The translations under genes were made by a program, and so were the position numbers. A stretch of 64,000 nucleotides of DNA, taken from positions 32,002-96,001 of the IMG/VR virus record IMGVR_UViG_3300043464_001836; one strand, written 5' to 3'. Shown here piece after piece: positions 22,773 to 62,244 of the stretch; the first letter of the stretch is position 1, and each line of letters begins with the position of its first letter. The notes beneath the pieces are model-generated. The model did no database searches. It was given only the letters and a program-made list of their open reading frames with translations, and was not told where the DNA came from. Source of the stretch: a virus. Its lineage: Duplodnaviria > Heunggongvirae > Uroviricota > Caudoviricetes.

Positions 22773-22799
22773 TATAGTTCCTTAAATTAAAATACTAAG

Positions 22800-22873: not shown

Positions 22874-22892
22874 ACTTAGTACTCTATATTAT

Positions 22893-22967
22893 TGGTCCTA
22901 CGGACTAGGATCGAACTAGTGACCAACGCGTTATCAACACGCTGCTCTACCTCTGAGCTACCGTAGG
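22893..22967 (-). tRNA. tRNA-Ile (GAU)
   Basis: Acceptor CCTACGG/CCGTAGG, D-arm GCTC...GAGC, anticodon loop TTGATAA, T-arm ACTAG-TTCGATC-CTAGT, encoded CCA. Confidence 0.7.
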
Positions 22968-22974
22968 GTTTTAA

Positions 22975-23112
22975 TTACATCAAATCGTGTTCTTCAGCAA
23001 ACAAGTGATAAATGTCGTACCAAGTGTTTGCAGTATCTGACATAGGAACAGCCTTAAGATATTTGTACCAAGCATAAATCTTCATACGATGCAGATTAGC
23101 TTTTACGCTCAT
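22975..23112 (-). CDS. 45-aa hypothetical protein, paralog A (MSVKANLHRMKIYAWYKYLKAV...)
   Basis: About 85 percent identical to the ORF at 24051..24188. Class-B promoter cassette upstream. Confidence 0.4.
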   Translation of the reverse strand: MSVKANLHRMKIYAWYKYLKAVPMSDTANTWYDIYHLFAEEHDLM

Positions 23113-23173
23113 GTCACTCTCCAGTTCAGAAAAGATATTTTACAAGGTTTGTACTATTTGTTCAACTGCAAAT

Positions 23174-23244
23174 TGGTGGAGCTAAGGGGTAACTAGCCCC
23201 TGCTGAGGTTATGAAACCTAACGCTAAGTTTAACCGCTAGCCCC
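23174..23244 (-). tRNA. tRNA with CAU in an apparently 8-nt anticodon loop (Met/Ile2-like) and an atypical T-loop CTAGTTA
   Basis: Seven-bp acceptor GGGGCTA/TAGCTCC, discriminator A, encoded CCA, T-stem AGGGG/CCCCT, anticodon region TTAGG-TTTCATAA-CCTCA. Confidence 0.4.
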
Positions 23245-23253
23245 GATGATTAA

Positions 23254-23351
23254 AATGGTTGACAGGTTTCGAACCTGCGTTTCACTGGTGATTCCCACCA
23301 TACTATTTCTAGTGTGGGCCCTTGCGTACTAAACCACTATACTACAACCAT
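23254..23351 (-). tRNA. tRNA-like, 98 nt, unresolved (possible insertion)
   Basis: Acceptor ATGGTTG/CAACCAT, D-arm GTAT...GTAC and T-arm GCAGG-TTCGAAA-CCTGT, but about 20 extra nt in the anticodon region. Confidence 0.3.
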
Positions 23352-23382
23352 ATCTAAGAGGTCTGAGGAAACTGCTTAGATA

Positions 23383-23459
23383 TGGCCCGCCGGGAGGAAG
23401 TCGAATCCCCATCTAAAGAGGTAGAAGCTCTTTGCTCTAGTCCGTTAAGCTACCGGCGG
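23383..23459 (-). tRNA. tRNA-Arg (UCU)
   Basis: Acceptor CCGCCGG/CCGGCGG, anticodon stem AAGAG/CTCTT, loop CTTCTAC, encoded CCA. Confidence 0.65.
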
Positions 23460-23464
23460 AATGT

Positions 23465-23540
23465 TGGTGGGCCCGGGAGGAATCAAACCTCACGTTCTTC
23501 GTCTTATGAGGACGCCGCTTCGTCATTAAGCTACAGGCCC
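23465..23540 (-). tRNA. tRNA-Met/Ile2-type (CAU)
   Basis: Acceptor GGGCCTG/CGGGCCC, D-stem GCTT/AAGC, anticodon loop CTCATAA, atypical T-loop TTTGATT, encoded CCA. Confidence 0.55.
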
Positions 23541-23551
23541 GATAGTACTTC

Positions 23552-24019
23552 TTAATAATGATCTACTGAGTAGTAATCCCTTACTATGATTTTTCTATCA
23601 ATAATGTCTTTTCTATGACCAATCTTGCTCCCGCAAGTTCTAGAGCAAGTTACAGTTTCTTTATGACTTACTTGGTTATACGCCCGTATAAATTCATTTG
23701 AGCATATAGGACACCGTAGTAAAACTAGTCTCTTACCTTTAGAGGATTCTTTGAGATACTTCAAATTGTTTTCTTTTTTAGAAAGAATTTGTAAATTCTC
23801 TATTCTATCATCTATTTTGATATTATTAATGTGGTCTACATGCTCATCAGGATGTAATTTTCTACCTAGATGAGTAGACATTAGATACCTGGCGTATGAA
23901 GTACTAGAGCGAGCACCAGTACTAGTGTTATAAAGTACTACGGTATTCCTACCTTGCGAAGAGACTAAGTATGCATTAGTGTACTCTTCGGTATAAGGGT
24001 GTTTTATTTCTATTTTCAT
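23552..24019 (-). CDS. HNH endonuclease (second family, HNH_3/AP2-like)
   Basis: HVDHINNIKIDDRIENLQIL HNH motif plus a C-terminal CPIC...C zinc cluster. Confidence 0.65.
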   Translation of the reverse strand: MKIEIKHPYTEEYTNAYLVSSQGRNTVVLYNTSTGARSSTSYARYLMSTHLGRKLHPDEHVDHINNIKIDDRIENLQILSKKENNLKYLKESSKGKRLVLLRCPICSNEFIRAYNQVSHKETVTCSRTCGSKIGHRKDIIDRKIIVRDYYSVDHY

Positions 24020-24050
24020 TTTATTCTATTCTATTCTATTGTTAATATGT

Positions 24051-24188
24051 TTACATCAAATCGTATTCTTCAGCAAACAAGTGGTAAATATCGTACCAAG
24101 TGTTTGCAGTCTCTGACATGGGAGCGGCAGCCAAGTATTTATACCAAGCATAAATCTTCATACTACGTAGGTTAGCTTTTACGTTCAT
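24051..24188 (-). CDS. 45-aa hypothetical protein, paralog B
   Basis: MNVKANLRSMKIYAWYKYLAAA... Paralog of 22975..23112. Confidence 0.4.
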   Translation of the reverse strand: MNVKANLRSMKIYAWYKYLAAAPMSETANTWYDIYHLFAEEYDLM

Positions 24189-24456
24189 GTCATTCTCCAG
24201 TTCAGAAAAGATATTTTACAGTGAATTGAGTTTTCAAACAACGTCAGATTCTTGTATGTGCTATATCAAGTCTTTGCACATCATAGCTATCCTAGTGAAG
24301 TTTTGTACTCCTTGTGCACTAAGGGTTTCATCTTTAAGACTAAATTCTGCCAGAGCGAGTGTATCTTGTAACGTTTTCAGGCTTTCTTGTAGATCACTCA
24401 TGTCTTTCTCCATTTCAGAAAAGATATTTTACAGTGAATTACGCGTTCAAACAACG

Positions 24457-24915
24457 TCAAATAAACCAGCTAGGAACCTCGGTCTTCCAAGTGCAGAAGT
24501 ATGCTTTGTCTTTCTTATAGTATTCCCTATAAGCAGTAACTACGTCTAGATGCTTATACTCATCTGGTACACATTTAGGTGGCTCGGTAAACTCTGTACT
24601 AGTAAACGTAGGCAGCTCTAGTTCGTTGCGTACTACTAGGTAGGACTTATGATCTCTACCAGAGTAACGTTTCTTATATTCTAGATTTAGCTGCTCTTGT
24701 AAGTCGACTAGATAGAAGAAGTTAGCTTCAGACTTTCTAGTCCATATAGCACACGGATGGTTAGCATGAGTAGGCTTATAAGGGCCAACTCCTAGTAGTT
24801 GATGGGTAGTGGTTGAAAGAAGCTGCGCGTACTCTAGAATCATCTTAACTACGTGCTTATCACAATGATAAGCAGCACAGCGCTTAATGTCTGTATCTAG
24901 GTAAAAGATATTCAC
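24457..24915 (-). CDS. hypothetical protein
   Basis: ORF. Confidence 0.45.
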   Translation of the reverse strand: MNIFYLDTDIKRCAAYHCDKHVVKMILEYAQLLSTTTHQLLGVGPYKPTHANHPCAIWTRKSEANFFYLVDLQEQLNLEYKKRYSGRDHKSYLVVRNELELPTFTSTEFTEPPKCVPDEYKHLDVVTAYREYYKKDKAYFCTWKTEVPSWFI

Positions 24916-25160
24916 TTTTTTCCAATCTTAGAGGATAACTCAGCCTTACTAGCACGCAGCTTATCTAGGAAGCCATAGTAACTACGAAGGTATAACTCTC
25001 TGACGTCAGCACTTTCTTCCTGCTTAAGTAACTCAATAGCGGCAAGTATCCTTTTCTCTTCTTCGCTATGTCTAGTAAGGTTGGCTTTCAGTCCTATTGG
25101 TTTTAGGTCACAGAAGTAGCTAGCCATTTTATTCACTCCACAAAAGTTCAAGCATGTCAT
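24912..25160 (-). CDS. hypothetical protein
   Basis: ORF. Confidence 0.4.
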   Translation of the reverse strand: MTCLNFCGVNKMASYFCDLKPIGLKANLTRHSEEEKRILAAIELLKQEESADVRELYLRSYYGFLDKLRASKAELSSKIGKK

Positions 25161-25335
25161 CAGCTATTTTATACATCTCAGGGTCCATACGTTCCATACC
25201 GGCTTCCAAAGAATCACTACAAAGGTAGTGGTCGGTATGACGATCCCAAGCACGCTCTAGCGTATTTCTAATAAACTCACGGAGGTTTGAAAATTCCCCT
25301 TCGGTCAAAATAAAGTCTTCACCTTGTTTACGCAT
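25129..25335 (-). CDS. hypothetical protein
   Basis: ORF. Confidence 0.4.
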   Translation of the reverse strand: MRKQGEDFILTEGEFSNLREFIRNTLERAWDRHTDHYLCSDSLEAGMERMDPEMYKIADDMLELLWSE

Positions 25336-25460
25336 TTCAGTCTTCCTTAATCAGTTAATAAAGATATTATACGCACTTGTATAAAACTAAACAACCTTAT
25401 AAATTTGGGGTCGAGGCGCAGAAAAAGGCTCCGAAGAGCCTTTACTGTTAAATCACTTTG

Positions 25461-26279
25461 CTACATAATTTCAAATTTATTACTCTTACTTAAGTTCTCC
25501 CTAGCTGGGAGATGTTGTAGATTAAATTCACAATGAAGTCCGCATACTAAGCTACTTTGTAGTGGAACTATATGGTCTACATGATACCCCTCTGGGCAGG
25601 TTTGATAAATTTCTTTTATAGCTATCAAATTTGCCCACTTTGGAGTCGCCTGTAACTTAGCAGCTCTACGTTTAGCGCTTTTTGCTGCAAATAAGTACTT
25701 ATTATTTTGGTAGTATAGCTTAATACTCTCTTTATTATGTAGTCTGTAGATGCGTTGTTTTTCTAATATGTCTTCTTTATTATTCTGATAGTGTACTTGC
25801 TTTTTCTTATGTAAAGAAGAAGCATTAAGTACATTATACTCTTTGAGGTACCTAGATATCTCATCCCTATTAGTTACTCTGTACTCTCTATCGCAGCTTT
25901 TACACTTACTTTGTCTGGAGCTTCTAGCATAATAGTTACTAAAGCGATCCAGGTCTAAAATAGAGTTACAGCAGGGGCACCTCTTTTTACCTACTAGGGA
26001 TAAAAAGTAGATGAACCACATTCTACCTTCCTTATCAGCAACAATATCAGGATACTTAGACCTTATAGACCTATTAAGATTAACTCCACAGGTGTACCCA
26101 CAGTACGTTGCTAATTGCTCCATACTACCTACTTTTATATCTAAAGCTTTTTCAATGAAGTGCACCCATAATATGTGTTTAGGTCTTTGTTTACTATATT
26201 TTGGGAGAAATACTTCACCAATATTAAACCTACTTACTAAGTAAGAATAAATTTTACTAACTAGAGTGTTATCTATCAT
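25461..26279 (-). CDS. HNH homing endonuclease (family 1 paralog)
   Basis: Shared C-terminal HNH module. Confidence 0.8.
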   Translation of the reverse strand: MIDNTLVSKIYSYLVSRFNIGEVFLPKYSKQRPKHILWVHFIEKALDIKVGSMEQLATYCGYTCGVNLNRSIRSKYPDIVADKEGRMWFIYFLSLVGKKRCPCCNSILDLDRFSNYYARSSRQSKCKSCDREYRVTNRDEISRYLKEYNVLNASSLHKKKQVHYQNNKEDILEKQRIYRLHNKESIKLYYQNNKYLFAAKSAKRRAAKLQATPKWANLIAIKEIYQTCPEGYHVDHIVPLQSSLVCGLHCEFNLQHLPARENLSKSNKFEIM

Positions 26280-26386
26280 ATTATGCCTCCTTCGGCATTC
26301 ACAAGAGGGTAACCTCTTGCTTATCTTTTAAGAAATATGAGAAAAGTTTCTAGTTAGAACTTTACTAGAAGTGCAACATATTTTAT

Positions 26387-26466
26387 TGGTGGAGCATATC
26401 AGGATCGAACTGATCTGTTCTTCCTCGGTGCAAGCGAGGTAGCCACGCCAAGCAGCCCCATGCCCC
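26387..26466 (-). tRNA. tRNA-Ala (UGC)
   Basis: Acceptor GGGGCAT/ATGCTCC with a G3:U70 pair, anticodon stem CCTCG/CGAGG, loop CTTGCAC, T-arm ATCAG-TTCGATC-CTGAT, encoded CCA. Confidence 0.55.
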
Positions 26467-26472
26467 AAATGT

Positions 26473-26682
26473 TTATTTATTCATAACTACAGCAGTACAC
26501 ATAGCAGCCGATTCGGTATACGCATAAGCACACTTAGCTTCGATAGCTGGTATACCTTGCACTACCATTTCCTTAATGGCTTCCGTTTCTGTAACGGAGT
26601 CGTAAGTGATAGCTAGAATTAAAGTAGCTAGTACCGCTGCTACTAGCGACCAGGTTACGACGTATAGCTTATTGTCGCTCAT
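26473..26682 (-). CDS. small membrane protein
   Basis: Hydrophobic N-terminus. Confidence 0.4.
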   Translation of the reverse strand: MSDNKLYVVTWSLVAAVLATLILAITYDSVTETEAIKEMVVQGIPAIEAKCAYAYTESAAMCTAVVMNK

Positions 26683-26918
26683 AATCCAGCAGCACCAAGA
26701 GCTAGAGCCATAGCACCGGCTGAGTTATTACGCCGACCGTTGTGCTTCATAACGACCTTGGTATTACCTTCCATCCGGTACAGGTCCGTAGCAGTACGGC
26801 TCTTGTAGAAGCAATCTTCTGCTTCTTTATAGTCGGAGCCAAAATACTGAGTAACTAGGCCACCAAAAGCAACAACGCCGAACAAACCTTTAGGTTGAAT
26901 CTTATTACGAAATTTCAT
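26679..26918 (-). CDS. hypothetical protein
   Basis: ORF. Confidence 0.4.
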   Translation of the reverse strand: MKFRNKIQPKGLFGVVAFGGLVTQYFGSDYKEAEDCFYKSRTATDLYRMEGNTKVVMKHNGRRNNSAGAMALALGAAGL

Positions 26919-26930
26919 TTTAATGCTCCA

Positions 26931-27524
26931 TTAAGTTGAGGGTACTACGATAAATCTGTTGTTCTTCTGTATATTATCAAACGGTGTTAAGTATTGCAAA
27001 TTAGCAAGAGTGTGTAACCCACAAACTAAATCATCTTGAAGGGGTACTATATGGTCTACGTGATACCCTTCAGGGCATGCGCTATAGAAGTCACTTATTG
27101 CGGGGAGGTCTGCCCAAGATGGACAACTATTTAACCTCTTAGCTTTATATTTAGCAGTTCTGGCTACTTGTTTATCTTTGTTCCTAGAATACTGGCACAT
27201 CCTACAGGAAATATTCAACCCGTCTGACTTCGATGCATTTTTTGAGAAGTTACTTAAACTATACACGGTATTACAATACCTACAGTATTTAAGCCCTTCT
27301 AATTTTAGAATATGGGTTAACCATCTTGTATTATTGATTTTACCTGGAAATATAGTATTAAGTAATTTAACTAGTACATTATATGTACTATTACTAAGGA
27401 ATGTTCGCAAGTTATAAGTATCGGAACTTAATAACTCTATAATAGTATCCGTAGGAACTACTTGGTCTAGTAGTATACGATGCCTATTTAAAATAAAGGT
27501 TAGTATTTCTTCTTTTGAGTACAT
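26931..27524 (-). CDS. HNH homing endonuclease (family 1, divergent paralog)
   Basis: YHVDHIVPLQDDLVCGLHTLANLQYL module. The conserved structured leader lies upstream. Confidence 0.7.
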   Translation of the reverse strand: MYSKEEILTFILNRHRILLDQVVPTDTIIELLSSDTYNLRTFLSNSTYNVLVKLLNTIFPGKINNTRWLTHILKLEGLKYCRYCNTVYSLSNFSKNASKSDGLNISCRMCQYSRNKDKQVARTAKYKAKRLNSCPSWADLPAISDFYSACPEGYHVDHIVPLQDDLVCGLHTLANLQYLTPFDNIQKNNRFIVVPST

Positions 27525-29420
27525 TTTTATTCCTTAACTGAATACTTAGGCTAGATAGTGAGTTAAGCACTATCAGGGGAGCTACCCTTTTCGCCTTAAT
27601 TGGATGCGGCCGAGCGTACCGCCCGCTCTCCCTTTTGGGATATGAGCCCAAAGTCTGACTATCAGAAGCCGCAATTAATTCTACTAAGTAAAGCCCCTTA
27701 TACTTACTAGCTACGGGATAGTGACCGTACTATTACGTTATAAGTGTTGCCGGTACGCCTATCAACCGGCAGTTGCGCAGATATTCCTAATGTGGTTAAT
27801 TACGCCTATAGGATTATCATAAGCTTTGCTTTACTTAGTAAAACTGGGTAATGAGATGAAGTTTGTAACAGACTCAGTATAAACCTAGGATAAGTTTAGG
27901 GTCCTAGAACTGACATTTATACTGTACTAGTACTTGGTCTACTAGCTGACTACAACATTGGATAACCGTTGAGGTTATCCATCTCTTTATCATATAGAAG
28001 TAGCTGTTACACACGCAGCACTACCCATACGGTCGTTACGGCTAGAATCTTGGGATATTTAGAATTATCAAGATTAGCCTAGAGTCGACCGTTTCATGGC
28101 ATTTCAGCCAATCGTCAGTAGGTTTGTTTGTCCGATTAATACTGGTTTCATATCGGGAGGTTGCTAGTACACCAGTCCTATACCTAGTCATTATAAGGGT
28201 GTGCGTCAGACTAGGAGTTGAGCACAACAATCTCTAAATTTCAGTCTAGCTTTGAGGTACTAGAACAGACGCGCGGTATTAATTCGCCTAGAGTACTCAC
28301 GCGTTACCTCTAGGTAGAGGATAGGTGCTAAGGATACCAACCCTTAGTCTTTCATAATGTTATTGCACAAAGTGGGTTTACACCTATTTAGAAGTACCTG
28401 CTATTAAGACTTCCTAGCTTCCTCTGCCTGCAAAGCATTTCCACTAGTAGTTTCTTAAAATACGCCATACATTCAGTGATCCCGTACCCTCACGCTTGCA
28501 GACATAAGGTGTCCCGTACCAGTATATAGTCTTTGGTCGTACTGCAAATACTTCTAAATAATACTCTTTTCGTGAGTAACTCGCACTTCGTAACCGAGAA
28601 GTGTAGCAGCCTAGGTATATGGATTCTTTCCCTAGAGTCACTAGATTAACATTTCTGCTAATTGCCACACAGCGGAGCCTACTAATAATTTCGGACGCTC
28701 TGTACTAGTGTCTTAAAAGCTAGGGTGGCTGCGCTTGGCATAAACCCAGAAGGGTTTGTTCCTTTTAACACTAACCAGGGTTAGTGCCCTAACTCAGAAA
28801 TAATATTATACGACCTTAATCAAAGAATTTCAAGTTCAAAATCAGGAAAGTCTGCTTCAGTTTCTTGAGGAATAAAGCCTCGTTCAATCATGTCAAAGTA
28901 AACTACATCGTGCATATCAGCCGGAACAGAGAATTCGCCGAAAGACATTTTGTTATTCCTTCATCAAGTTAGAAAAGATATTTTACAGCACTTAAGACTT
29001 TGAAGCAACATCAAATTTCTGAACCGTAACAACCAGGAAGTTGCATCCCTTCGTTTCAGTAGCCGTTTACTCCGTCTTGCTTAGGACAGTGATTACAATT
29101 CAGAATTGATATTTTACAGTGTTTAACTTACTAGAACAACATCAGAATTTAGCGGTTGGCCCAGAGTTCCGCTTCACGCAAAAGACCTGCATCAACCAGC
29201 TCCCAATATCGACGATCAAACATGTTGAACTCCTTAATTCATTTCAGAAAAGATATTTTACAGCGTTTGACTTATTAGAACAACGTCAAAATTCTCAAGT
29301 TAGATGCCTAGCATGAAAGAGTAATACCACGGGACCTTTGACAATGGCACAGGATATTAGAGCTTACTAGTGTCGCCTTTGTATGTCAACTCAGGCTTTG
29401 ACGGTCTCTAGGAGATTTGT

Positions 29421-29568
29421 CATCTAACTTTAGAATCCCAGTTATTCGATCTGGGAACGCTTACTCGCTCAGGCTTTCGCGTGGAGCAGTAATTCATCTA
29501 ACTTTAGAATCCCAGTTATTCGATCTGGGAACGCTTACTCGCTCAGGCTTTCGCGTGGAGCAGTAATT
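29421..29568. repeat. Perfect tandem duplication, 2 x 74 bp
   Basis: Unit CATCTAACTTTAGAATCCCAGTTATTCGATCTGGGAACGC... occurs twice head to tail. It is followed by the class-B promoter cassette. Confidence 0.8.
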
Positions 29569-29634
29569 CATTTCAGAAAAGATATTTTACAGCGTTTGAC
29601 TTGTTACAACAACGTCAAAATTCTAAACTAGGGA

Positions 29635-29707
29635 TGGAGCGGGTATGGGAGATCGAATCCCATCTACACGGCGTGGAAGGCCGGCGACTCTCCATGAGCT
29701 TACCCGC
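29635..29707 (-). tRNA. tRNA-Gly (UCC)
   Basis: Acceptor GCGGGTA/TACCCGC, anticodon loop CTTCCAC, T-arm TGGGA-TTCGATC-TCCCA, encoded CCA. Confidence 0.6.
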
Positions 29708-29748
29708 TTTGTTACTTTTGTAAAGGTAGTTTACAGCGTTTGATATGC

Positions 29749-30429
29749 TTAATCGACTTCAAATTTGTTACCCTTACTTAAGTTCTCACTAGCAGGTAAA
29801 TGTTGTAGGTTGAATTCGCAGTGTAAACCACATACTAGCTTACCTTGTAGGGGTACTATGTGATCTACATGGTACCCCGGAGGGCATGTTTGGTAAATTT
29901 CTTTTATAGTTACCAAGTTTGCCCACTTTGGGGTGGCTTTCAGTTTGGTAGCTCTGTATTTTGCTTTCTTTGCAAAATACATATATTTATGTATATAATA
30001 GTGATTTCTACTAGAAATATTTAGTATGGTTTTGTTTATTTTGTAATAAATCTTATGTCTACTAGAGTCGCACTCTTTACATATAGTATGCACTTTATAG
30101 TTTACATCTCGTATATTACGAGAGTAATAGCTCAAAGGCTTAACTTCTACGCATTTTGTGCAGACTCTATAACCAACAGTGTATAATAACCAAGCTCTAT
30201 AACTTTTTATAATTTTTGGCTTACTAAGGAAGATTTTATCCCTGAAACCTTTGAATCCACCATCACCTAACCTAGAGTACCCTAATTCTTTTGCTAAGTT
30301 GGAGTTGTCTTCATTTATAAGAGCTTCTATTAGACGTGCTTTATCTATGTTCTTTGTATTTCTAGGTATCGGTACACCTAATTTATCTATAGCTACGCTT
30401 AGTAGCTCTCTTACTGTATCTTCATTCAT
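29749..30429 (-). CDS. HNH homing endonuclease (family 1 paralog)
   Basis: Shared HNH module. The conserved leader lies upstream. Confidence 0.8.
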   Translation of the reverse strand: MNEDTVRELLSVAIDKLGVPIPRNTKNIDKARLIEALINEDNSNLAKELGYSRLGDGGFKGFRDKIFLSKPKIIKSYRAWLLYTVGYRVCTKCVEVKPLSYYSRNIRDVNYKVHTICKECDSSRHKIYYKINKTILNISSRNHYYIHKYMYFAKKAKYRATKLKATPKWANLVTIKEIYQTCPPGYHVDHIVPLQGKLVCGLHCEFNLQHLPASENLSKGNKFEVD

Positions 30430-30541
30430 ATTACACCCCCTCCAGGGCTAAAGCATAGGCTAGATTATGGAGGTAATCAGAGGAGCAACCCTTTTTCGCC
30501 TATAATTGTAGAAAGCTGCTATACCAGCAACTTTCTGAATG

Positions 30542-30617
30542 CTCCGTATTAGAGAATCGAACTCTACTATCCAGTGGTTAACAGCCACGCCCATGCGCCT
30601 TGCTCGGGTTCTACGGA
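30542..30617 (-). tRNA. tRNA-Asn (GUU)
   Basis: Acceptor TCCGTAG/ATACGGA (6/7 pairs), anticodon stem GTGG/CCAC, loop CTGTTAA, T-arm TAGAG-TTCGATT-CTCTA. Confidence 0.55.
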
Positions 30618-30626
30618 ATTGATCTT

Positions 30627-31052
30627 TTAATCTACCTTAGGTTCAACAAACTGAAACTCACGTCCAGGCTTCGTAATTAGGGCTAGCTTATTACGAATCT
30701 TATCTTCTAGAATAGGGTCAGCGAAACCAAAGTCATCTTGAATGCTCATATCAACGATGGGCTTATCCAAGTCAAAGTCTGCTAGCAAACCTTCAACTAC
30801 GTCGGCTACTAACACGTCAGCACAGAGAATTAAGTCTGCCCACTCTAGATGCACTTGGTCGATAGGGATTAGTGCAAAGTCAGCAGTAGAGCCAACTGCA
30901 CGAGGATTTACATTATCAAAGTCACGGGTGAGCACTCGTGCCATCGTAGGGCTGCGAAGCAAGCCCGCAGAACAGACGCAAAGAACTCGTACAGAGTCAC
31001 CTTGAAACCGATTGTGACAATTTCCTAGACGATTACGGGTTACGTTAGACAT
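30627..31052 (-). CDS. Low-molecular-weight protein-tyrosine-phosphatase/ArsC-like protein
   Basis: N-terminal P-loop VLCVCSAGLLRS (C-x5-R-S), with conserved Asp residues downstream. Confidence 0.45.
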   Translation of the reverse strand: MSNVTRNRLGNCHNRFQGDSVRVLCVCSAGLLRSPTMARVLTRDFDNVNPRAVGSTADFALIPIDQVHLEWADLILCADVLVADVVEGLLADFDLDKPIVDMSIQDDFGFADPILEDKIRNKLALITKPGREFQFVEPKVD

Positions 31053-31071
31053 TTTGTTTCCTTAAAGTATT

Positions 31072-31146
31072 TGGAGCCGTATGAGAATTCTGAGATCTCG
31101 ACCTGCTGCTTACAAGGCAGCTGCTCTGCCACTGAGCTAATACGGC
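31072..31146 (-). tRNA. tRNA-Thr (UGU)
   Basis: Acceptor GCCGTAT/ATACGGC, canonical D-arm GCTC-AGTGGCA-GAGC, anticodon stem GCTGC/GCAGC, loop CTTGTAA, atypical T-loop CTCAGAA, encoded CCA. Confidence 0.6.
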
Positions 31147-38600: not shown

Positions 38601-38681
38601 CAATTAAGGCGAAAAGGATTGATCCCCCTGTCCCCCTCATGGGACTAGCCTAAGTTAACTAGCCAGTGAGGTGGCTGTAGT

Positions 38682-39422
38682 ATGGTTGAAGATAATGTAG
38701 TTGAAGAGATTTATGCCGTGTTGGTTGAGCAGTTTGGGGTCGACAACCTATTTTTACCTAAGAGGGGTAAAAAGAGACCTAGAACCATTACTTGGAAAGA
38801 CTTTATCAAAGCTACACTAGAAGAAGAGGAATTATATAAGTATTGTGGATACGCTAATACTGGCTCCTTCAGCTCTGGTATAAAGAGAGCACACCCTAGT
38901 ATAGTAAAGGAAAAAGGTAGTAGGCCTTGGTTTCACTTCCTTCTATATTTGGCTGGATATAAGCGCTGTCCAGAGTGTAACAACGTACTAATGGTTACTA
39001 ATTTTAGTTATACTAGTACGCATAAGGATGGCTTGCATACAGAGTGCAAAGAATGCGCAAGAGAATGTGCAAGAGAGTACTATAAGAAAAATAAAGGGTC
39101 TATCTTAGAGAAAGCAAGGGAGTACCAACAAGCTAATAAAGAGCAGTATATGGAGCAGCATAAAAAATACTACCTAAACAATAAGCATATATTTGCAGCA
39201 TATAATGCTAAACGCCGAGCTACTAAGCTACAGGCTTCCCCACTATGGGCAGACCAGGAAAAGATAAAACAGATATACGCAACACGACCAGAAGGTTATC
39301 ACGTAGACCATATAATTCCATTACAACATCCACTAGTATGTGGCCTTCATTGTGAATTTAACTTACAGCACCTACCGGCAGCTGAAAACCTTACTAAGCA
39401 CAATAGGTTTGATTTAGATTAA
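38682..39422 (+). CDS. HNH homing endonuclease (family 1 paralog)
   Basis: Shared N-terminal EEIYAxLVEQFGV...LPKRGKKRPRTITW module and C-terminal HNH module. Confidence 0.8.
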   Translation: MVEDNVVEEIYAVLVEQFGVDNLFLPKRGKKRPRTITWKDFIKATLEEEELYKYCGYANTGSFSSGIKRAHPSIVKEKGSRPWFHFLLYLAGYKRCPECNNVLMVTNFSYTSTHKDGLHTECKECARECAREYYKKNKGSILEKAREYQQANKEQYMEQHKKYYLNNKHIFAAYNAKRRATKLQASPLWADQEKIKQIYATRPEGYHVDHIIPLQHPLVCGLHCEFNLQHLPAAENLTKHNRFDLD

Positions 39423-42271: not shown

Positions 42272-43753
42272 ATGAATCCCGCAACTAACACTGACTTCTA
42301 CAAAACTGGTCACATCTTTCAGTACCCCGAAGGCACTGAAAAGGTCTACTCTAACTGGACTGCTCGTTCGGCCAAGAACTTCAAGGACTTCCAAGGTCAA
42401 TTCGACGACAAGGTAGTCTTCTTCGGCCTTCAAGCGGCTTTGATTAAACTACAGAAAGAATGGGAAGAAAAGTTCTTCTCTCTGCCTGTAGACGTAGCTG
42501 TAGCTAAGTACAATCGCCGTATGCGTACTAGCATTGGCCCTATTGATACTAAGCACATTGAAGCGCTTTGGAACCTTGGCTTTCTACCTATCAAGGTTAA
42601 GGCCCTTCCCGAAGGTTCTCGTGTTAACCTACGTGTACCTATGTTTACTGTAGTTAACACCCACTCTGAATTCGGTTGGCTCACTAACTACCTAGAGACC
42701 TACCTCTCTTCTGAAGTTTGGAAGACCTGTACCAACGCAACTATCGCCTTTGAGTATCGTAAGCTGTTTGACAAGTATGCGCAGATTACTGGTACGCCTC
42801 GCGAGTTTGTCCAGTTTCAGGGTCACGACTTCTCAATGCGTGGTATGGATGGAACTGAGTCAGCAGGACGTTCTGGAGCTGCTCACCTTCTTTCCTTCGT
42901 AGGAACGGATACTATTCCTGCAATTGACTTCCTTGAGGATTTCTACTTCGCTAATGCTGAGCAGGAACTTATTGGAACCTCTGTTCCAGCTACAGAGCAC
43001 TCAACTATGTCAGCGGGTGGAGAAGTTGATGAGGCTGCTACCTTCAAGCGTCTTATTACTGAAGTGTACCCTTCTGGTATTATTAGTATCGTATCCGATA
43101 CTTGGGACCTGTGGGGAGTGCTAACTGTTATTGCACCTTCTCTAAAGGAAGAAATCCTTAACCGCGGCCGTGATGCCTTCGGCATGTCCAAGGTAGTGTT
43201 TCGCCCTGACTCCGGGGATCCTGTTAAAATCATTGTAGGTGACTGTAGTGCTGAACCTGGTACTCCTGAGTTCAAAGGTGCTGTTCAACTACTGTGGGAA
43301 AACTTTGGTGGAACCTTTACTGATAATGGCTTCAAGCAAGTAAATGAGCACGTTGGTCTTATCTATGGTGACTCTATTACTCCTGCTCGTGCTAGGGCAA
43401 TCCTAGAAGGTCTAGCTAACAAGGGCTTTGCTAGTGGTAACATTGTGTTTGGTATTGGTTCTTACACGTACCAAATGAACACTCGTGATACCTTTGGCTT
43501 TGCTATGAAGGCTACCTACGCTGTAGTTAATGGTGTTGGCCGAGAACTCTTCAAGAACCCTAAAACTGACTCTGGTATGAAGAAGTCTGCTAAGGGTCTG
43601 CTTCGTGTTGAACTAGAAGATGGTGAGTTTGTTCTATACGATCAGCAAACTGAACTAGAAGAGACATTAGGAGTACTTGAAACTGTATTCCTTAACGGTA
43701 AGCTAGTTAAGCAAACCAGCCTTGCAGAAGTTCGTAAGAATCTGCTAGGCTAA
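42272..43753 (+). CDS. nadV: Nicotinamide phosphoribosyltransferase (Nampt/NadV)-family enzyme; could be the Namat variant
   Basis: 493 aa, Nampt-family length and conserved blocks (FQGHDFSMRGMDG, GIISIVSDTWD, GLIYGDSIT). Confidence 0.75.
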   Translation: MNPATNTDFYKTGHIFQYPEGTEKVYSNWTARSAKNFKDFQGQFDDKVVFFGLQAALIKLQKEWEEKFFSLPVDVAVAKYNRRMRTSIGPIDTKHIEALWNLGFLPIKVKALPEGSRVNLRVPMFTVVNTHSEFGWLTNYLETYLSSEVWKTCTNATIAFEYRKLFDKYAQITGTPREFVQFQGHDFSMRGMDGTESAGRSGAAHLLSFVGTDTIPAIDFLEDFYFANAEQELIGTSVPATEHSTMSAGGEVDEAATFKRLITEVYPSGIISIVSDTWDLWGVLTVIAPSLKEEILNRGRDAFGMSKVVFRPDSGDPVKIIVGDCSAEPGTPEFKGAVQLLWENFGGTFTDNGFKQVNEHVGLIYGDSITPARARAILEGLANKGFASGNIVFGIGSYTYQMNTRDTFGFAMKATYAVVNGVGRELFKNPKTDSGMKKSAKGLLRVELEDGEFVLYDQQTELEETLGVLETVFLNGKLVKQTSLAEVRKNLLG

Positions 43754-46186: not shown

Positions 46187-46352
46187 AAATTACATTTGAT
46201 TTTACTGTATGATTATTATATAATAGTCTGTAGCCTATAATAAGGCTAATAAGATATTACGTATAATTACAGGTTATGGGTGAAAAGGGTCGCTCCTCTG
46301 TCCTCTCCTCCAAGGACTAGCCCAGTTATTTGGCCACGGAGGTGGCTACACT

Positions 46353-47102
46353 ATGATTGAAGAAGAAATTTATAACCTTTTAGTCGAGCGGTTTGGGGTT
46401 AGCGAAGTCTTTTTACCAAAGAGAGGTAAAAAGAGACCTAGAACCATTACTTGGCTAGAATTTATTAAAGTAGTTCTACAGGTAGAACCAATGGCCCTAC
46501 CAAAGTTTTGTGGGTATTCTAATAGCAACTTTGGTACTGGTGTAAAAACATTGCATAGTGCTATAGTAAAGGAAAAAGGTAAAAGACAGTGGGCTCACTA
46601 CTTTCTAGCTTTGGTTGGCTATAAGAGATGTAGTGAATGTAAGATAATATTACCTGTAAAAACCTTTAACCGGAATACCCATAATACAGATGGCTTGCGA
46701 CCTAGCTGTAAAAATTGTGACGCCACTTATCGTAAGTCTAATAGGGCTAGTAAAAATGCGCTACAGGTTGTCTATTATAAGGCAAATAAAGAGCGTTATA
46801 GAGTTCTTAACAAAAAGTGGCGAGAATCTAATAAAGACCGTATTAAAGAGTACTGTGAAAAGAATAGACATATATTTGCAGCATATGCTGCAAAACGCAG
46901 AGCAATTAAGCTACAAGCAACCCCCAATTGGGCAAACCTCATAACTATAAAACAAATTTATGAAACGTGCCCTGATGGCTATCACGTAGACCATATAGTT
47001 CCTTTACAGAATCCTTTAGTATGTGGCCTTCATTGTGAGTTCAACCTTCAACATCTACCTGCCCTAGAAAACCTAACTAAGAGTAATAAATTTGAAATAT
47101 AG
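46353..47102 (+). CDS. HNH homing endonuclease (family 1 paralog)
   Basis: Shared N- and C-terminal modules. Conserved structured leader 46278..46352. Confidence 0.8.
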   Translation: MIEEEIYNLLVERFGVSEVFLPKRGKKRPRTITWLEFIKVVLQVEPMALPKFCGYSNSNFGTGVKTLHSAIVKEKGKRQWAHYFLALVGYKRCSECKIILPVKTFNRNTHNTDGLRPSCKNCDATYRKSNRASKNALQVVYYKANKERYRVLNKKWRESNKDRIKEYCEKNRHIFAAYAAKRRAIKLQATPNWANLITIKQIYETCPDGYHVDHIVPLQNPLVCGLHCEFNLQHLPALENLTKSNKFEI

Positions 47103-48108: not shown

Positions 48109-48303
48109 CCCAAAGCCTCAAGCCTACGAAATAATGGGCTTGAGGCTTTACTTATTAAAAAGTACACTTGATTTTTATACCTAGCGTGTCGTATAATAAG
48201 TTTGTGAGCTAAAAGAATTTATATAGTTAAGGGCGAAAAGGGTAGCTCCCCTGGTCAACTCACAGACCTAGCCCAGGTATTACGACACAGTGAGGTGTCT
48301 TAA

Positions 48304-49023
48304 ATGATAGAAGAAATTTATACTGCTCTAGTTGAGCAGTTTGGGGTTGGAGTAGTATTCTTACCTAAGTATAGAAAGAATAGAGTTAAGGACATAACTT
48401 GGCTAGAGTTTATCGAAGCTGCTTTAGAAATAAGTACAGAAGAGCTATATAAGTATTGTGGTTACTCTGAGGCTACTAATTTTAGTAGAGGTTTAAGGCA
48501 AGCATACCCACATATAATAAAAGAAAAAGGTGGTAGACCTTGGAGATTATATCTCCCTACACTAGTACATAAGAGGCACTGCTGTTCCTGTGGTAGGTTG
48601 CTAGAGTATATTAATTTTAGTCCAGATAGTACAAAGAAAGATGGTTTACACTCTGAATGTAAATCCTGTAAGTTAGAGTATTACAAAGGTAACAAAAACC
48701 ATATTTTAGATAGACAGAGATACTACCGGCAAGCTAATACTGAACTTATTAAAGAGAGGCATAAAGAGTACTATAGTAATAACAAGTACCTATTTAATGC
48801 AAGAAATGCTAAGCGTAGAGCAACTAAACTACAGGCGACCCCAAATTGGGCAAACCTCATAACTATAAAACAAATTTATGAAACGTGCCCTTCTGGGTAC
48901 CATGTAGACCATATAGTTCCGTTACAGCATGACTTAGTGTGTGGCCTTCATTGTGAATTTAATCTTCAACATTTAACAGCTAAAGAAAACTTAAGTAAAG
49001 GTAATAAATTTGAGGTAGATTGA
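48304..49023 (+). CDS. HNH homing endonuclease (family 1 paralog)
   Basis: Shared modules. Conserved leader 48230..48303. Confidence 0.8.
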   Translation: MIEEIYTALVEQFGVGVVFLPKYRKNRVKDITWLEFIEAALEISTEELYKYCGYSEATNFSRGLRQAYPHIIKEKGGRPWRLYLPTLVHKRHCCSCGRLLEYINFSPDSTKKDGLHSECKSCKLEYYKGNKNHILDRQRYYRQANTELIKERHKEYYSNNKYLFNARNAKRRATKLQATPNWANLITIKQIYETCPSGYHVDHIVPLQHDLVCGLHCEFNLQHLTAKENLSKGNKFEVD

Positions 49024-61354: not shown

Positions 61355-61524
61355 AAACTTAGTAGGCCGGTGATTTATATGCACCAGCCTACTAACCTTT
61401 AATTATTCTTAAGTGTTCCTACGAATGCTTAAGAATAATTAACGGAGGTGACACGGAGTTGCAACTCCTTCTAGGTTCCTAACTAGATAGCCTCCACCTA
61501 CATAGTCCTATAGGAGGGACAAAA

Positions 61525-62244
61525 ATGATTGATGATAAATTAGTAGAAGAGATTTACGCTGCGTTAGTTGAACGGTTTGGTATTAGTGAAATATTCTTGC
61601 CTAAGAGGGGTAAGAATAGACCATTAGATATAACTTGGAAGGACTTTATTAAAGCTGCTTTAGAGCTAGAGCCAACAGAGTTATATAGCTTCTGTGGTTA
61701 TGCTAATAAAGTTAATTTTAGCAAGGGGCTAAAGAATACACATCCTAATATAATGCTAGATAAAGATGGAAGACATTGGGCAGGGTACTTACTATGTCTA
61801 GTTGGCTATAAACTATGCCCAGAATGTGGTGAAGTGCTACCTACATCAGTATTTAGTCACAGTAATAGTACAAAAGATGGATTACAGTCTACCTGTAAAG
61901 GCTGCGACGCTACCTCTAGGGAAGCAAATAAAGAATACTTTAAAGAGTACTCTAAAAAATATTACGCAGCAAATAAAGAATACTTTAAAGAGTACTATGA
62001 AAGTAACAAGCACCTGTATATAGCTTATAGTGCGAAACGCAGAGCTTCAAAGCTTAAAGCGACCCCAAAATGGGCAAACCTGGTAGCCATAAAAGAAATT
62101 TACCAAACATGCCCAGAGGGGTATCATGTAGACCATATAATTCCACTTCAAGGTAAATTAGTGTGTGGTCTTCATTGTGAGTTCAATCTACAGCATCTTC
62201 TAGCTAGTGAGAATTTAATTAAAGGTAATAGGTTCGAAGTATGA
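61525..62244 (+). CDS. HNH homing endonuclease (family 1 paralog) between the terminase genes
   Basis: Shared N- and C-terminal modules. Confidence 0.8.
   Translation: MIDDKLVEEIYAALVERFGISEIFLPKRGKNRPLDITWKDFIKAALELEPTELYSFCGYANKVNFSKGLKNTHPNIMLDKDGRHWAGYLLCLVGYKLCPECGEVLPTSVFSHSNSTKDGLQSTCKGCDATSREANKEYFKEYSKKYYAANKEYFKEYYESNKHLYIAYSAKRRASKLKATPKWANLVAIKEIYQTCPEGYHVDHIIPLQGKLVCGLHCEFNLQHLLASENLIKGNRFEV

What the first reader, a model, noticed from the sequence alone, without database searches (positions are those of the whole stretch)
38610..38681. Conserved roughly 75-nt structured leader upstream of at least six HNH genes, with the Shine-Dalgarno sequence held in a hairpin loop
The leader GGCGAAAAGG(G/A)T-GCTCC(C/T)CTG ... 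CTAGCC(C/T)A ... hairpin-ATG recurs at 38610..38681, 46278..46352 and 48230..48303, and on the minus strand at 27525..27600 and 30430..30505. The final hairpin places GAGG or GGAG in its loop (GACACagtGAGGTGTC, CCACGGAGGTGG, AGCCAgtGAGGTGGCT). This looks like a mobile-cassette boundary that also acts as a translational control or RNA processing structure.
Basis: seen in the sequence. Interest (0 to 1): 0.55.

Follow-up and report, generated by a model that had tools for sequence, protein, structure and literature searches.

The report
Kissing-loop leader silencing phage homing endonucleases
A small, previously undescribed folded RNA sits in front of selfish DNA-cutting enzyme genes in many phages; its shape hides the ribosome landing site, so it most likely keeps these risky genes barely translated.

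Summary
The five listed copies match a covariance model at 39-70 bits (next best 13 bits). A sixth, divergent copy lies at 61444-61524. The same leader occurs in more than 100 uncultured phage contigs, one cultured E. coli phage (EP_H11) and almost no bacterial genomes. Rfam 15 and the papers searched hold nothing like it.

It folds as a three-way junction (P1, P2, P3) followed by a small hairpin, P4. The 6-nt loop of P3 is complementary to the 6-nt loop of P4, which carries the first half of the Shine-Dalgarno sequence. The second half lies in the P4 stem. P1, P3, P4 and the loop-loop helix all show heavy compensatory change (95-98% paired against 37-52% in slid controls).

Downstream genes belong to at least four unrelated homing-endonuclease folds. 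Two comparisons of alleles with and without the gene put the 5' edge of the insertion 5-6 nt upstream of P1.

Best reading: a cassette-borne translational attenuator, a new architecture for a known strategy (T4 I-TevI and Aeh1 mobE hairpins). The function is inferred, not tested. A 19-nt junction core that is invariant across lineages is unexplained and leaves room for a sensor or catalytic role.

The parts
38604..38681 (+). Leader copy 1 (type A). P1 38604-38610 / 38648-38653. J1/2 GAAAA 38611-38615. P2 GGA-UUGA-UCC 38616-38625. P3 GUCCC 38630-38634 / GGGAC 38641-38645, with loop L3 CCUCAU 38635-38640. J3/1 UA 38646-38647. P4 AGCCA 38661-38665 / UGGCU 38672-38676, with loop L4 GUGAGG 38666-38671 (SD).
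   Evidence: Sequence. CM R1 39.1 bits, E 1.6e-8. The RNAfold MFE reproduces the junction and P4. L3 CCUCA is complementary to L4 UGAGG.
38682..39422 (+). Nuclease ORF, 246 aa (His-Me finger / endonuclease VII-like).
   Evidence: ORF list; phrog_1035 E 2.3e-17; DH..N..N motif in alignment A2.
46277..46352 (+). Leader copy 2 (type A). P1 UGGGU/GCCCA. GAAAA. P2 GGG-UCGCU-CCU. P3 GUCCU/AGGAC with L3 CUCCUCCA. P4 GCCAC/GUGGC with L4 holding GGAG.
   Evidence: Sequence. CM R1 51.5 bits. L3 CCUCC is complementary to GGAGG, -8.6 kcal/mol. Promoter-like TTGATT-17-TATAAT at 46196-46224.
46353..47102 (+). Nuclease ORF, 249 aa.
48230..48303 (+). Leader copy 3 (type A, canonical 19-mer). P1 GGGC/GCCC. P3 GGUC/GACC with L3 AACUCACA. 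P4 GACAC/GUGUC with L4 AGUGAG.
   Evidence: Sequence. CM R1 53.3 bits. The MFE gives the junction and P4. L3 CUCAC is complementary to GUGAG. Promoter-like TTGATT-18-TATAAT at 48168-48197.
48304..49023 (+). Nuclease ORF, 239 aa.
27525..27600 (-). Leader copy 4 (type A, canonical 19-mer). P3 GAUAGUG/CACUAUC with L3 CUUAACU. P4 UAUUC/GAAUA with L4 AGUUAAG.
   Evidence: Sequence. CM R1 69.8 bits. Seven-base perfect L3/L4 complement.
26931..27524 (-). Nuclease ORF, 197 aa.
30430..30505 (-). Leader copy 5 (type A; J1/2 is GAAAAA). P1 AUAGGC/GCCUAU. P2 GGG-UUGCU-CCU. P3 GAUUA/UAAUC with L3 CCUCCA. L4 UGGAGG.
   Evidence: Sequence. CM R1 41.0 bits. L3/L4 complement of 6 nt.
29749..30429 (-). Nuclease ORF, 226 aa.
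61444..61524 (+). Leader copy 6 (variant core). P1 GGAGGU 61444-61449 / GCCUCC 61490-61495. J1/2 GACAC. P2 GGAGU-UGCA-ACUCC 61455-61468. P3 61470-61474 / 61483-61487 with L3 GUUCCUAA. J3/1 UA. P4 GUCCU 61505-61509 / GGGAC 61516-61520 with L4 AUAGGA.
   Evidence: Sequence. MFE -26.3 kcal/mol gives the junction and P4, z = -1.94. L3 UCCUA is complementary to L4 UAGGA. Not found by CM R1, whose core is type A.
61525..62244 (+). Nuclease ORF, 239 aa, 57% identical to the 38682 ORF. Its stop overlaps the start of the next gene (62241).

Best explanation
The leader is a cis-acting RNA that travels as the 5' end of free-standing homing-endonuclease gene cassettes and keeps the nuclease poorly translated.

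Shown:
- The transcript folds into a three-way junction: P1 closes it, P2 is a 3-bp hairpin, and P3 is a 5-7 bp hairpin.
- A few nucleotides downstream lies a 4-5 bp hairpin, P4.
- The 6-7 nt loop of P3 (L3) is Watson-Crick complementary to the loop of P4 (L4, NNNNGG).
- L4 plus the first two bases of the P4 3' strand (AG) make up the Shine-Dalgarno GGAG, which ends 7-9 nt before the start codon.

Inferred:
- The junction aims L3 back along P1, so that it kisses L4 as soon as P4 is transcribed.
- With GG in the kissing helix and AG in the P4 stem, the 30S subunit cannot pair with the SD.
- Only breathing of a deliberately weak loop-loop helix (about -5 kcal/mol) lets a little nuclease be made.
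- This would let a selfish and potentially toxic gene sit inside strongly transcribed phage operons, often directly behind a host-gene promoter, without harm.
For: Structure:
- In 78 distinct type-A leaders, 95.5% of cells are paired, against 36-52% when partners are slid. The covariation score is 0.659 against at most 0.147. All 5 P1 pairs and all 6 P3 pairs show double changes, and there are 15 different P1 triplets.
- P2 has compensatory changes in four lineages: GGU/ACC, GGA/UCC (twice, once in window copy 38610) and GAG/CUC. The only non-compensated hit to the probing pattern lacks P1 and P3.

Kissing helix:
- A leader's own L3 finds a 5.9-nt perfect complement, on average, in the 63 nt downstream. 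Other leaders' loops or shuffled downstream sequence give 3.9 nt. 57 different complement words occur.
- With L4 defined independently of L3 (RNAfold on the downstream part only), the 6-bp L3/L4 helix is 97.2% paired in 36 distinct leaders. Five of its six pairs covary. For the three helices together, slid controls give 37-44%.
- The P4 stem flanking L4 is 84% paired, against 37-60% when slid out of register.
- In 74 of 93 leaders the complement ends 7-9 nt before the start codon.

RNA level and orientation:
- There are 30 G-U pairs against 12 A-C pairs.
- The element is always in sense orientation, directly upstream of an ORF.

Gene association:
- 74 non-redundant downstream proteins fall into 15 clusters. 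They include endonuclease VII / HNH-type His-Me fingers, HNH_3, GIY-YIG, T5orf172/MUG113, LAGLIDADG, PDDEXK_5 and DUF559.
- Other paralogs in the same window point the same way. The one at 20275 hides its SD in a 14-bp hairpin with TATAAT in the loop (z = -3.78). The one at 26279 has an SD-loop hairpin.

Cassette membership.

Precedent: RBS-sequestering structures regulate I-TevI, I-TevII, I-TevIII, segB and Aeh1 mobE (PMC2988022; PMC2677866).
Against: - No expression data: repression is inferred only from pairing of the SD.
- Folding energies of the window leaders are unremarkable (z = +0.9 to -1.2), so thermodynamics alone would not single them out.
- A plain attenuator does not explain why 19 nt (GAAAAGGGUAGCUCCCCUG) are invariant in more than 90 leaders whose helices all differ. 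It also does not explain why a second core type is equally conserved.
- Unlike the T4 paradigm, no internal promoter that would give leaderless 'ON' transcripts was found, so how or whether repression is relieved is unknown.
- The cassette boundary rests on two comparisons. Orphan junction cores also exist: L153 and L212 can be shown to have lost P4 and the ORF, and L162 and L081 have no ORF behind the core. So the unit can break just after P1'.
Confidence: 0.68

Rival explanations
1. A regulated switch. The invariant junction core binds a small molecule, an ion or a widely conserved protein, and this binding sets the angle of P3 and hence whether L3 can capture the SD loop. That would make it a riboswitch-like or protein-controlled translational switch that times nuclease expression.
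For: The 19-nt J1/2-P2-J2/3 block is invariant while P1, P3, L3 and L4 vary freely. This is the conservation pattern of aptamer cores. The kissing helix is weak, -5.0 +/- 1.5 kcal/mol, with 2 G-C pairs plus A/U-rich pairs, which suits a switch. The SD-sequestering pseudoknot or kiss is a common riboswitch expression platform (own knowledge).
Against: The genes served have no metabolic link to any ligand. In the type-B core the junction strands GA(A/C)A and UUUC can pair into a long P2, leaving little unpaired pocket. The P2 loop varies in the window copies and in L014 and L212 (UCGCU, UUGCU, UUGA, UCAUU, GUCU). No mutually exclusive alternative pairing was seen. No Rfam riboswitch matches even at E 10.
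Confidence: 0.15
2. An RNA processing or stability element. The junction would be a new self-cleaving ribozyme or an RNase target that detaches the nuclease mRNA from the upstream transcript. Alternatively, it would be a 5'-terminal structure that protects a rarely translated mRNA from 5'-end-dependent decay.
For: It is a three-way junction with strongly conserved junction strands (GAAAA, CU, UA) and a tertiary loop-loop contact, as in several small ribozymes (own knowledge). The leader lies at or near the 5' end of the unit, directly behind promoter-like boxes or terminators in several copies. Untranslated mRNAs need protection (own knowledge).
Against: The hammerhead core is not met: only GAAA is present, with no CUGANGA and no UH site. 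Twister, twister-sister, pistol, hatchet, HDV-like and all other Rfam models give nothing at E 10. A ribozyme does not need its loop to pair with the SD, and that pairing is the best-conserved long-range feature. The -10-like boxes are not enriched overall (22 of 83 against 22 of 92 in the control).
Confidence: 0.08
3. A DNA-level element. The invariant 19-mer would be a protein recognition site, a promoter, or a recombination or homing site that lets nuclease genes move or be exchanged. The RNA fold would be secondary.
For: Sequence invariance of the core goes beyond what helices need. P2 loops of all core types hold short palindromes (AGCU, GGCC, UGCA, CUGCAG). Within one phage group the leader and first codons are constant while nuclease ORF bodies are swapped. 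The 5' break of homology lies next to P1.
Against: It cannot explain compensatory changes in four helices, the G-U over A-C excess (30 against 12), the strict sense orientation, or the fixed distance of L4 to the start codon. Nucleases of at least four unrelated folds would not share one DNA target. No sigma-70-like promoter lies inside the leaders.
Confidence: 0.05
4. No function: the similarity only reflects recent duplication of the nuclease genes together with their upstream regions.
For: The window genes are paralogs (36-61% identity), so common descent of the leaders is certain.
Against: The six window leaders have six different, perfectly complementary P3 stems and six L3/L4 word pairs. 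The motif precedes unrelated nuclease folds in more than 100 contigs, with about 95% of pairs maintained.
Confidence: 0.01

Closest known systems
RBS-sequestering hairpins of phage homing-endonuclease genes (T4 I-TevI, I-TevII, I-TevIII, segB; Aeromonas phage Aeh1 mobE; hairpins upstream of endonucleases in 'fractured genes')
   Same: A cis RNA structure in the 5' UTR of an intron-encoded or free-standing phage homing-endonuclease gene that base-pairs the Shine-Dalgarno sequence and limits translation (PMC2988022; PMC2677866). One paralog in this very window uses exactly that design (20316-20275).
   Different: The known examples are single local hairpins without sequence conservation between genes, and a late promoter inside the hairpin gives unrepressed transcripts. 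This element is a three-way junction plus a separate SD hairpin, joined by a loop-loop kiss. It has a 19-nt core conserved across distant phages and across unrelated nuclease folds, and no internal promoter was found.
Translational riboswitches that hide the SD in a pseudoknot or kissing complex (SAM-II, preQ1-II/III; kissing-loop classes guanidine-II and guanidine-IV). Recalled from own knowledge.
   Same: A conserved core upstream with long-range Watson-Crick pairing that involves the SD; in the guanidine classes, loop-loop pairing between two hairpins.
   Different: No ligand is known or suggested by the gene context. No Rfam model matches. Here the loop-loop sequence is free to vary, whereas in guanidine-II the ACGR loops are conserved.
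GIR1 lariat-capping ribozyme of twin-ribozyme group I introns (own knowledge)
   Same: A structured RNA placed directly 5' of a homing-endonuclease ORF and dedicated to its expression.
   Different: GIR1 is a eukaryotic catalytic domain of about 190 nt derived from a group I intron. The present element is about 55 + 20 nt, bacterial-phage specific, and shows no sign of catalysis.
HEARO / omega-RNA (HNH Endonuclease-Associated RNA and ORF, Rfam RF02033; own knowledge)
   Same: A conserved structured RNA next to an HNH-domain nuclease gene.
   Different: HEARO is a large guide RNA of IscB in IS200/IS605 elements. There is no Rfam match here, and this element is a short mRNA leader whose variable loop pairs with its own SD.
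Candidate structured RNAs of IMG/VR (Fremin, Bhatt and Kyrpides 2023, PMC10690425)
   Same: A catalogue of 10,006 covarying RNA candidates from the same kind of viral contigs. 879 of them lie within 25 nt of a start codon. This motif may be among them.
   Different: The paper does not describe an endonuclease-associated leader. Its tables were not available for checking.

Membership tests
RBS-sequestering leader of phage homing-endonuclease genes (I-TevI / mobE type) | Lies in the 5' UTR directly upstream of a homing-endonuclease ORF | tested here: met
   93 of 98 distinct leaders are followed by an ORF. 74 non-redundant products include endonuclease VII/HNH, HNH_3, GIY-YIG, LAGLIDADG, PDDEXK_5 and DUF559.
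RBS-sequestering leader of phage homing-endonuclease genes (I-TevI / mobE type) | The Shine-Dalgarno sequence is base-paired in a conserved structure | tested here: met
   The L3/L4 helix is 97.2% paired with 5 of 6 pairs covarying. The P4 stem is 84-96% paired. GG lies in L4 and AG in the P4 3' strand.
RBS-sequestering leader of phage homing-endonuclease genes (I-TevI / mobE type) | A promoter inside the inhibitory structure gives shorter, translatable transcripts | tested here: not met
   No sigma-70-like site has its start point inside the six leaders. The one match within a leader, 46330-46357, ends on the start codon. -10 boxes are not enriched. Phage-specific promoters could not be tested. 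The window paralog at 20275 does meet this feature.
RBS-sequestering leader of phage homing-endonuclease genes (I-TevI / mobE type) | Translation is measurably repressed by the structure | not testable with these tools
   Needs reporter fusions or toeprinting.
Riboswitch | Conserved aptamer core with variable helices | tested here: met
   The 19-nt core is invariant in more than 90 leaders with covarying P1 and P3.
Riboswitch | Specific ligand binding that changes the fold | not testable with these tools
   No biochemical assay is available. No conserved mutually exclusive alternative pairing was noticed.
Riboswitch | Controlled genes are functionally linked to the ligand | tested here: not met
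   All identifiable downstream genes are nucleases of selfish elements.
Any Rfam 15 family (including hammerhead, twister, pistol, hatchet, HDV-like, HEARO, group I intron, tRNA) | Match to the family covariance model | tested here: not met
   No hit at gathering score in the window. At E up to 10 on three leaders, only two chance-level hits appeared: MIR2655 at 13 bits and potC at 12 bits.
Hammerhead ribozyme | Three-way junction with CUGANGA, GAAA and a UH cleavage site in fixed order | tested here: not met
   The junction strands are GAAAA, CU(G) and (C)UA. Only GAAA fits.
tRNA-like structure | Cloverleaf or acceptor/T-arm mimic recognised by tRNA finders | tested here: not met
   ARAGORN and the Rfam tRNA model report nothing at the leaders. 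There are only two inner arms. ACCA follows P1' in only a subset.
RNA kissing-loop complex | Two hairpin loops with antiparallel Watson-Crick complementarity maintained by covariation | tested here: met

The most novel reading that the evidence does not exclude
The invariant junction cores (type A GAAAAGGGUAGCUCCCCUG...CUA; type B GACAGGGCYGGCCAGCCUUUC...AUUA) are not mere scaffolds. They would form a new class of sensor or catalytic RNA dedicated to selfish nuclease genes. One option is a riboswitch-like element that reads a cellular or infection-stage signal and opens the L3/L4 kiss to time homing. The other is a new small ribozyme that frees and stabilises the nuclease mRNA.
Probability: 0.15. 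Interest if true: 0.9.

Novelty: new variant of a known kind. Interest (0 to 1): 0.68.

Why it matters
Homing endonucleases drive gene conversion and mosaicism in phage genomes, and how they stay harmless to their carrier is known only from a few T-even examples.

- **A shared device.** This is a sequence-defined RNA element shared by nuclease genes of at least four unrelated folds, in more than 100 phage contigs. That suggests a common, portable solution that moves with, or is reused by, these selfish genes.
- **Annotation.** The element is a practical marker for free-standing homing-endonuclease genes, including ones with no recognisable domain (EP_H11 WBU87647.1, L145, L119).
- **RNA biology.** It offers a compact natural three-way junction joined to a kissing loop, with one of the clearest covariation signals one can ask for.
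- **Engineering.** It is a ready-made, tunable translational attenuator whose 'address' (L3/L4) can be changed at will.
- **Testability.** One copy sits in a cultured E. coli phage, so the whole model can be tested directly.

Tried and rejected
- **Rfam.** Gathering scan of the window, and E-value scans up to 10 on three leaders. No family matched.
- **Known ribozyme cores.** Compared by inspection with hammerhead, and from memory with twister, pistol and hatchet. They do not fit.
- **tRNA-like reading.** It was prompted by GUAGCUC and by ACCA after P1' in a subset. Rejected: two arms only, three unpaired bases between P3 and P1', and no ARAGORN call.
- **Group I intron remnant.** Prompted by a resemblance of AUAGUCC to the S element. 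No Rfam intron hit, and the unit is closed by its own P1.
- **P2 register AGGG/CCCU**, which RNAfold prefers. Rejected because GGU/ACC, GGA/UCC and GAG/CUC fit only the register GGG/CCC.
- **Dedicated promoter at P1.** Strict -10 boxes are not enriched, and sigma-70-like sites in the window are no more frequent than in shuffles. Only copies 2 and 3 have good boxes, 33-53 nt upstream.
- **Orphan junction core as an empty target site.** L153's L3 (CCGUUC) still matches the L4 (GAACGG) of a related nuclease-bearing leader (L135), so it is a deletion remnant.
- **Close relatives of the window phage in GenBank phages.** None found by megablast, so cassette ends could not be mapped for the window's own copies.
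- **Literature.** Full-text search for the 12-13-mers gave only unrelated human and mouse primers. The 224-motif paper has no endonuclease motif. The supplement of the IMG/VR catalogue is not held.
- **Thermodynamic z-scores.** Not significant, so they are not used as evidence.

Full report

All five listed sites carry the motif at the stated coordinates. Two degenerate words taken from the finding each match three times in the window, against zero matches in 100 dinucleotide-preserving shuffles.

A covariance model (R1) was built from 54 family members and run over the whole window with filters off. It finds exactly the five sites, at 69.8, 53.3, 51.5, 41.0 and 39.1 bits. The next hit scores 13 bits with E 0.33.

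The title speaks of six genes. tblastn finds nine paralogs of the nuclease in the window:
- Five carry the listed leader.
- One, ORF 61525-62244, carries a leader with the same architecture but a different junction core at 61444-61524. R1 cannot see it.
- Three do not carry it.

The proteins have no Pfam hit at E 0.01. They match PHROG 1035 'endonuclease VII' at 1e-15 to 3e-19 and show a DH...N...N motif. They are therefore His-Me-finger (HNH-superfamily) nucleases.

**2. Anatomy**

The leader has four helices. In window copy 27600-27525 they read as follows:
- P1: AAGGC / GCCUA(A).
- J1/2: GAAAA.
- P2: GGG-UAGCU-CCC.
- J2/3: CU.
- P3: GAUAGUG-CUUAACU-CACUAUC. Its first G pairs with the C of 'CUA'.
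- J3/1: UA, followed by the P1 3' strand.
- A short linker, then P4: UAUUC-AGUUAAG-GAAUA, and AUG eight bases later.

RNAfold returns the junction plus P4 as the minimum-energy fold for five of six leaders tested. The energies are no better than those of shuffled sequences (z +0.9 to -1.2), so the case rests on covariation.

- CUUAACU with AGUUAAG.
- CUCAC with GUGAG.
- CCUCA with UGAGG.
- CCUCC with GGAGG.
- CUCCA with UGGAG.
- UCCUA with UAGGA in the sixth copy.

L4 has the form NNNNGG. Together with the AG that opens the P4 3' strand, it makes up the Shine-Dalgarno GGAG.

**3. The family outside the window**

R1 finds 102 leaders in 100 of those loci and 23 hits upstream of homologs of the window nuclease.

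In 185,579 bacterial and archaeal species genomes, the canonical 19-mer occurs once, on a 4-kb MAG contig.

Among 50,697 GenBank phage records, only Escherichia phage EP_H11 carries it (R1 73.7 bits). There it lies upstream of a 303-aa hypothetical protein.

Several contigs carry two or more copies, for example L078, L088, L102 and L115.

**4. Covariation**

- **P1 and P3.** On 78 distinct leaders, 95.5% of cells form standard pairs, against 36-52% when the 3' partners are slid by 1-3 columns. The covariation score is 0.659 against at most 0.147. No shuffle out of 500 reaches the observed percentage paired, number of doubly changed cells or covariation score. All five P1 pairs and all six P3 pairs show changes on both sides. 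Fifteen different P1 triplets occur.
- **P2.** It is nearly invariant in that pattern-selected set but covaries in rarer copies: GGU/ACC (L028), GGA/UCC (L049 lineage and window 38610) and GAG/CUC (L014). A scan that forced a change at the third P2 position returned only compensated leaders, plus one uncompensated coding-region hit without P1 or P3. These changes fit the register GGG/CCC, not the AGGG/CCCU register that RNAfold prefers.
- **The kiss.** In 93 parsed leaders, the longest perfect complement of a leader's own L3 within the next 63 nt averages 5.9 nt (66 cases of 6 nt, 12 of 7 nt). Other leaders' loops or shuffled downstream sequence give 3.9 nt. 57 different complement words occur, and in 74 of 93 leaders the complement ends 7-9 nt before the start codon.
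- **The kiss, with L4 defined independently.** L4 was called from an RNAfold run on the downstream segment alone, and leaders whose two loops are both 6 nt were kept. In the 36 distinct leaders so selected, the L3/L4 helix is 97.2% paired and five of six pairs change on both sides. For the three helices together, slid controls give 37-44%. Only the L3/L4 helix is an unbiased test in that alignment, because P3 and P4 were defined per sequence by pairing.
- **P4.** The four positions either side of L4 are 84% paired in register, against 37-60% when slid out of register.
- **RNA level.** G-U pairs outnumber A-C pairs 30 to 12, and the element is always in the sense orientation of the ORF. The structure is therefore an RNA structure.

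**5. Which genes follow it**

74 non-redundant downstream proteins fall into 15 BLAST clusters:
- 54 His-Me-finger / endonuclease VII / HNH proteins.
- 5 GIY-YIG proteins, with NUMOD domains.
- Several HNH_3 / AP2 proteins.
- 2 PDDEXK_5.
- 1 LAGLIDADG.
- 1 DUF559 (Vsr-like).
- 1 T5orf172/MUG113.

The leader therefore goes with the lifestyle (free-standing homing endonuclease), not with a protein fold.

**6. Is it part of the mobile cassette?**

Two comparisons of alleles with and without the gene address this.
- EP_H11 against E. coli phage IME392: 96% identity up to 6 nt before P1. EP_H11 then has the leader and the nuclease ORF. Homology resumes about 70 nt into the downstream gene.
- In a podovirus-like group, L211 lacks the element altogether and diverges from L153/L092 5 nt before P1, directly behind a shared promoter-like TTGACA...GATTTAAC.

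The unit can also decay. L153 and L212 keep an orphan junction core but have lost P4 and the ORF. The 510-nt indel starts right after the P1 3' strand. L153's L3 still matches the L4 of a related intact leader.

In another group, the flank, the leader and the first ~15 codons are 82-97% identical, while the nuclease ORF bodies share no nucleotide homology. Nuclease alleles are thus exchanged behind a constant leader.

**7. Mechanism**

Shown: the fold, the kiss, the position of the SD inside it, and the link to homing-endonuclease genes.

Inferred from the established rule that a paired SD lowers initiation, and from the T-even precedents: the junction presents L3 so that it captures L4. GG is then held in the loop-loop helix and AG in the P4 stem, so the 30S subunit is kept off.

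The kissing helix is modest, at -5.0 +/- 1.5 kcal/mol. It typically has two G-C pairs at the SD end and four A/U-rich pairs. This suggests attenuation rather than a complete block.

The window itself supports this reading. The paralog at 20275 hides its SD in a 14-bp hairpin with a TATAAT box in the loop (z = -3.78), which is the classic I-TevI/mobE design. The paralog at 26279 has an SD-loop hairpin. Different structures give the same outcome.

Insertion directly behind host-gene promoters (L092, window copies 2 and 3) explains why strong silencing is needed.

**8. What is not explained**

The 19 nt GAAAAGGGUAGCUCCCCUG are invariant in more than 90 leaders whose helices all differ.

A second core type, P1-GA(C/A)A-GGGCYGGCCAGCC-UUUC-P3-(G)AUUA-P1', is equally conserved in about ten lineages. 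It has the same P1/P3/L3-L4 logic. Further variants occur in L001, L004/L012 and window copy 6.

The P2 loops of all core types contain a self-complementary XGCX' word.

A specific 3-D junction fold is the simplest reason for this conservation. A bound factor or ligand, catalysis, or a DNA-level role cannot be excluded. In type B the junction strands can pair, which argues against a ligand pocket. No signal that would release repression was found.

**9. Comparison with what is known**

The strategy is known. RBS-sequestering hairpins regulate I-TevI, I-TevII, I-TevIII, segB and Aeh1 mobE (PMC2988022). Hairpins also precede the endonucleases of 'fractured genes' (PMC2677866).

The architecture is not known: a conserved three-way junction, a separate SD hairpin, a covarying kissing loop, and use across nuclease folds and distant phages.
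- No Rfam 15 family matches.
- Full-text searches for the sequence and for the concept found nothing.
- The motif may be hidden in the 10,006 unnamed candidates of PMC10690425, which I could not check.

**10. Verdict**

The element is a real, strongly supported and apparently undescribed phage RNA motif.
- It is best read as a cassette-borne translational attenuator of homing-endonuclease genes (confidence about 0.68).
- A regulated-switch reading stands at about 0.15.
- Processing or stability stands at about 0.08, a DNA-level role at about 0.05, and 'no function' is effectively excluded.

I rate it a new variant of a known kind, with interest 0.68.

Noticed in passing
window 17602-17879 (-): A permuted (two-piece) tmRNA gene (Rfam RF04321, 74 bits) lies inside a phage-like cluster of 14-16 tRNA genes (13568-31146, all on the - strand). 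ARAGORN did not call it.
   Followed up: no
window 20316-20275 (-), upstream of ORF 20275-19592: A paralogous nuclease gene uses the classic T4-type design. A 14-bp hairpin pairs UUCCUCCAAU with AUUGGAGGA (the SD), with a TTGAAA-17-TATAAT promoter whose -10 box lies in the loop (MFE -16.6 kcal/mol, z = -3.78).
   Followed up: partly
window 26385-26270 (-) and 12393-11614 (-): Two more nuclease paralogs lack the junction leader. The one at 26279 sits right after tRNA-Ala and has two upstream hairpins plus an SD-loop hairpin, AUGCC-GAAGGAG-GCAU. The one at 12393 has no leader at all.
   Followed up: partly
L292, L296, L307, L334, L336, L361, L376, L388, L002, L005 (IMG/VR loci): A second conserved core type (GA(C/A)A-GGGCYGGCCAGCC-UUUC ... 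(G)AUUA) has the same P1/P3/P4 architecture and the same L3/L4 complementarity, for example CCCUAGCCGG with CCGGCUAGGG in L388.
   Followed up: partly
all core types (window copies; L001, L005, L012; window 61455-61468): The P2 loops carry short self-complementary words of the form XGCX' (AGCU, GGCC, UGCA, CUGCAG). Whether this means RNA dimerisation, a tertiary contact or a DNA-level site is unknown. The window copies UCGCU, UUGCU and UUGA break the palindrome.
   Followed up: no
L113, L120, L142, L149, L165, L178, L154, L083, L176: At one locus of a related phage group, the upstream flank, the leader and the first ~15 codons are 82-97% identical, but the nuclease ORF bodies (about 280-560 nt) share no nucleotide homology. 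Different nuclease alleles sit behind one constant leader.
   Followed up: partly
L153 (rc 3422-3475), L212 1999-2055, L162, L081: These are orphan junction cores with no P4 and no ORF behind them. In L153 and L212 the deletion starts right after the P1 3' strand. L212 has a changed P2 (GGGU-GUCU-ACCC).
   Followed up: partly
L153, L210, L211, L212, L213, L218: about 60-110 nt upstream of the capsid-like gene: A different conserved hairpin element (UAGCC - covarying stem - inner hairpin - stem - CACCUA) lies in the 5' UTR of a 355-aa capsid-like gene found in about 600 IMG/VR contigs.
   Followed up: no
window 42272-43753 (+): A nicotinamide/nicotinate phosphoribosyltransferase-like gene, 59% identical to that of an Acinetobacter phage. 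The phage has no close nucleotide relative in GenBank phages.
   Followed up: no
window 23254-23351 (-), 31075-31146 (-), 18518-18608 (-), 26387-26466 (-): The two tRNA finders disagree. Rfam calls tRNAs at 23254-23351 (98 nt, unusually long) and 31075-31146 that ARAGORN does not. ARAGORN calls tRNA-Tyr and tRNA-Ala, which Rfam's gathering list lacks.
   Followed up: no
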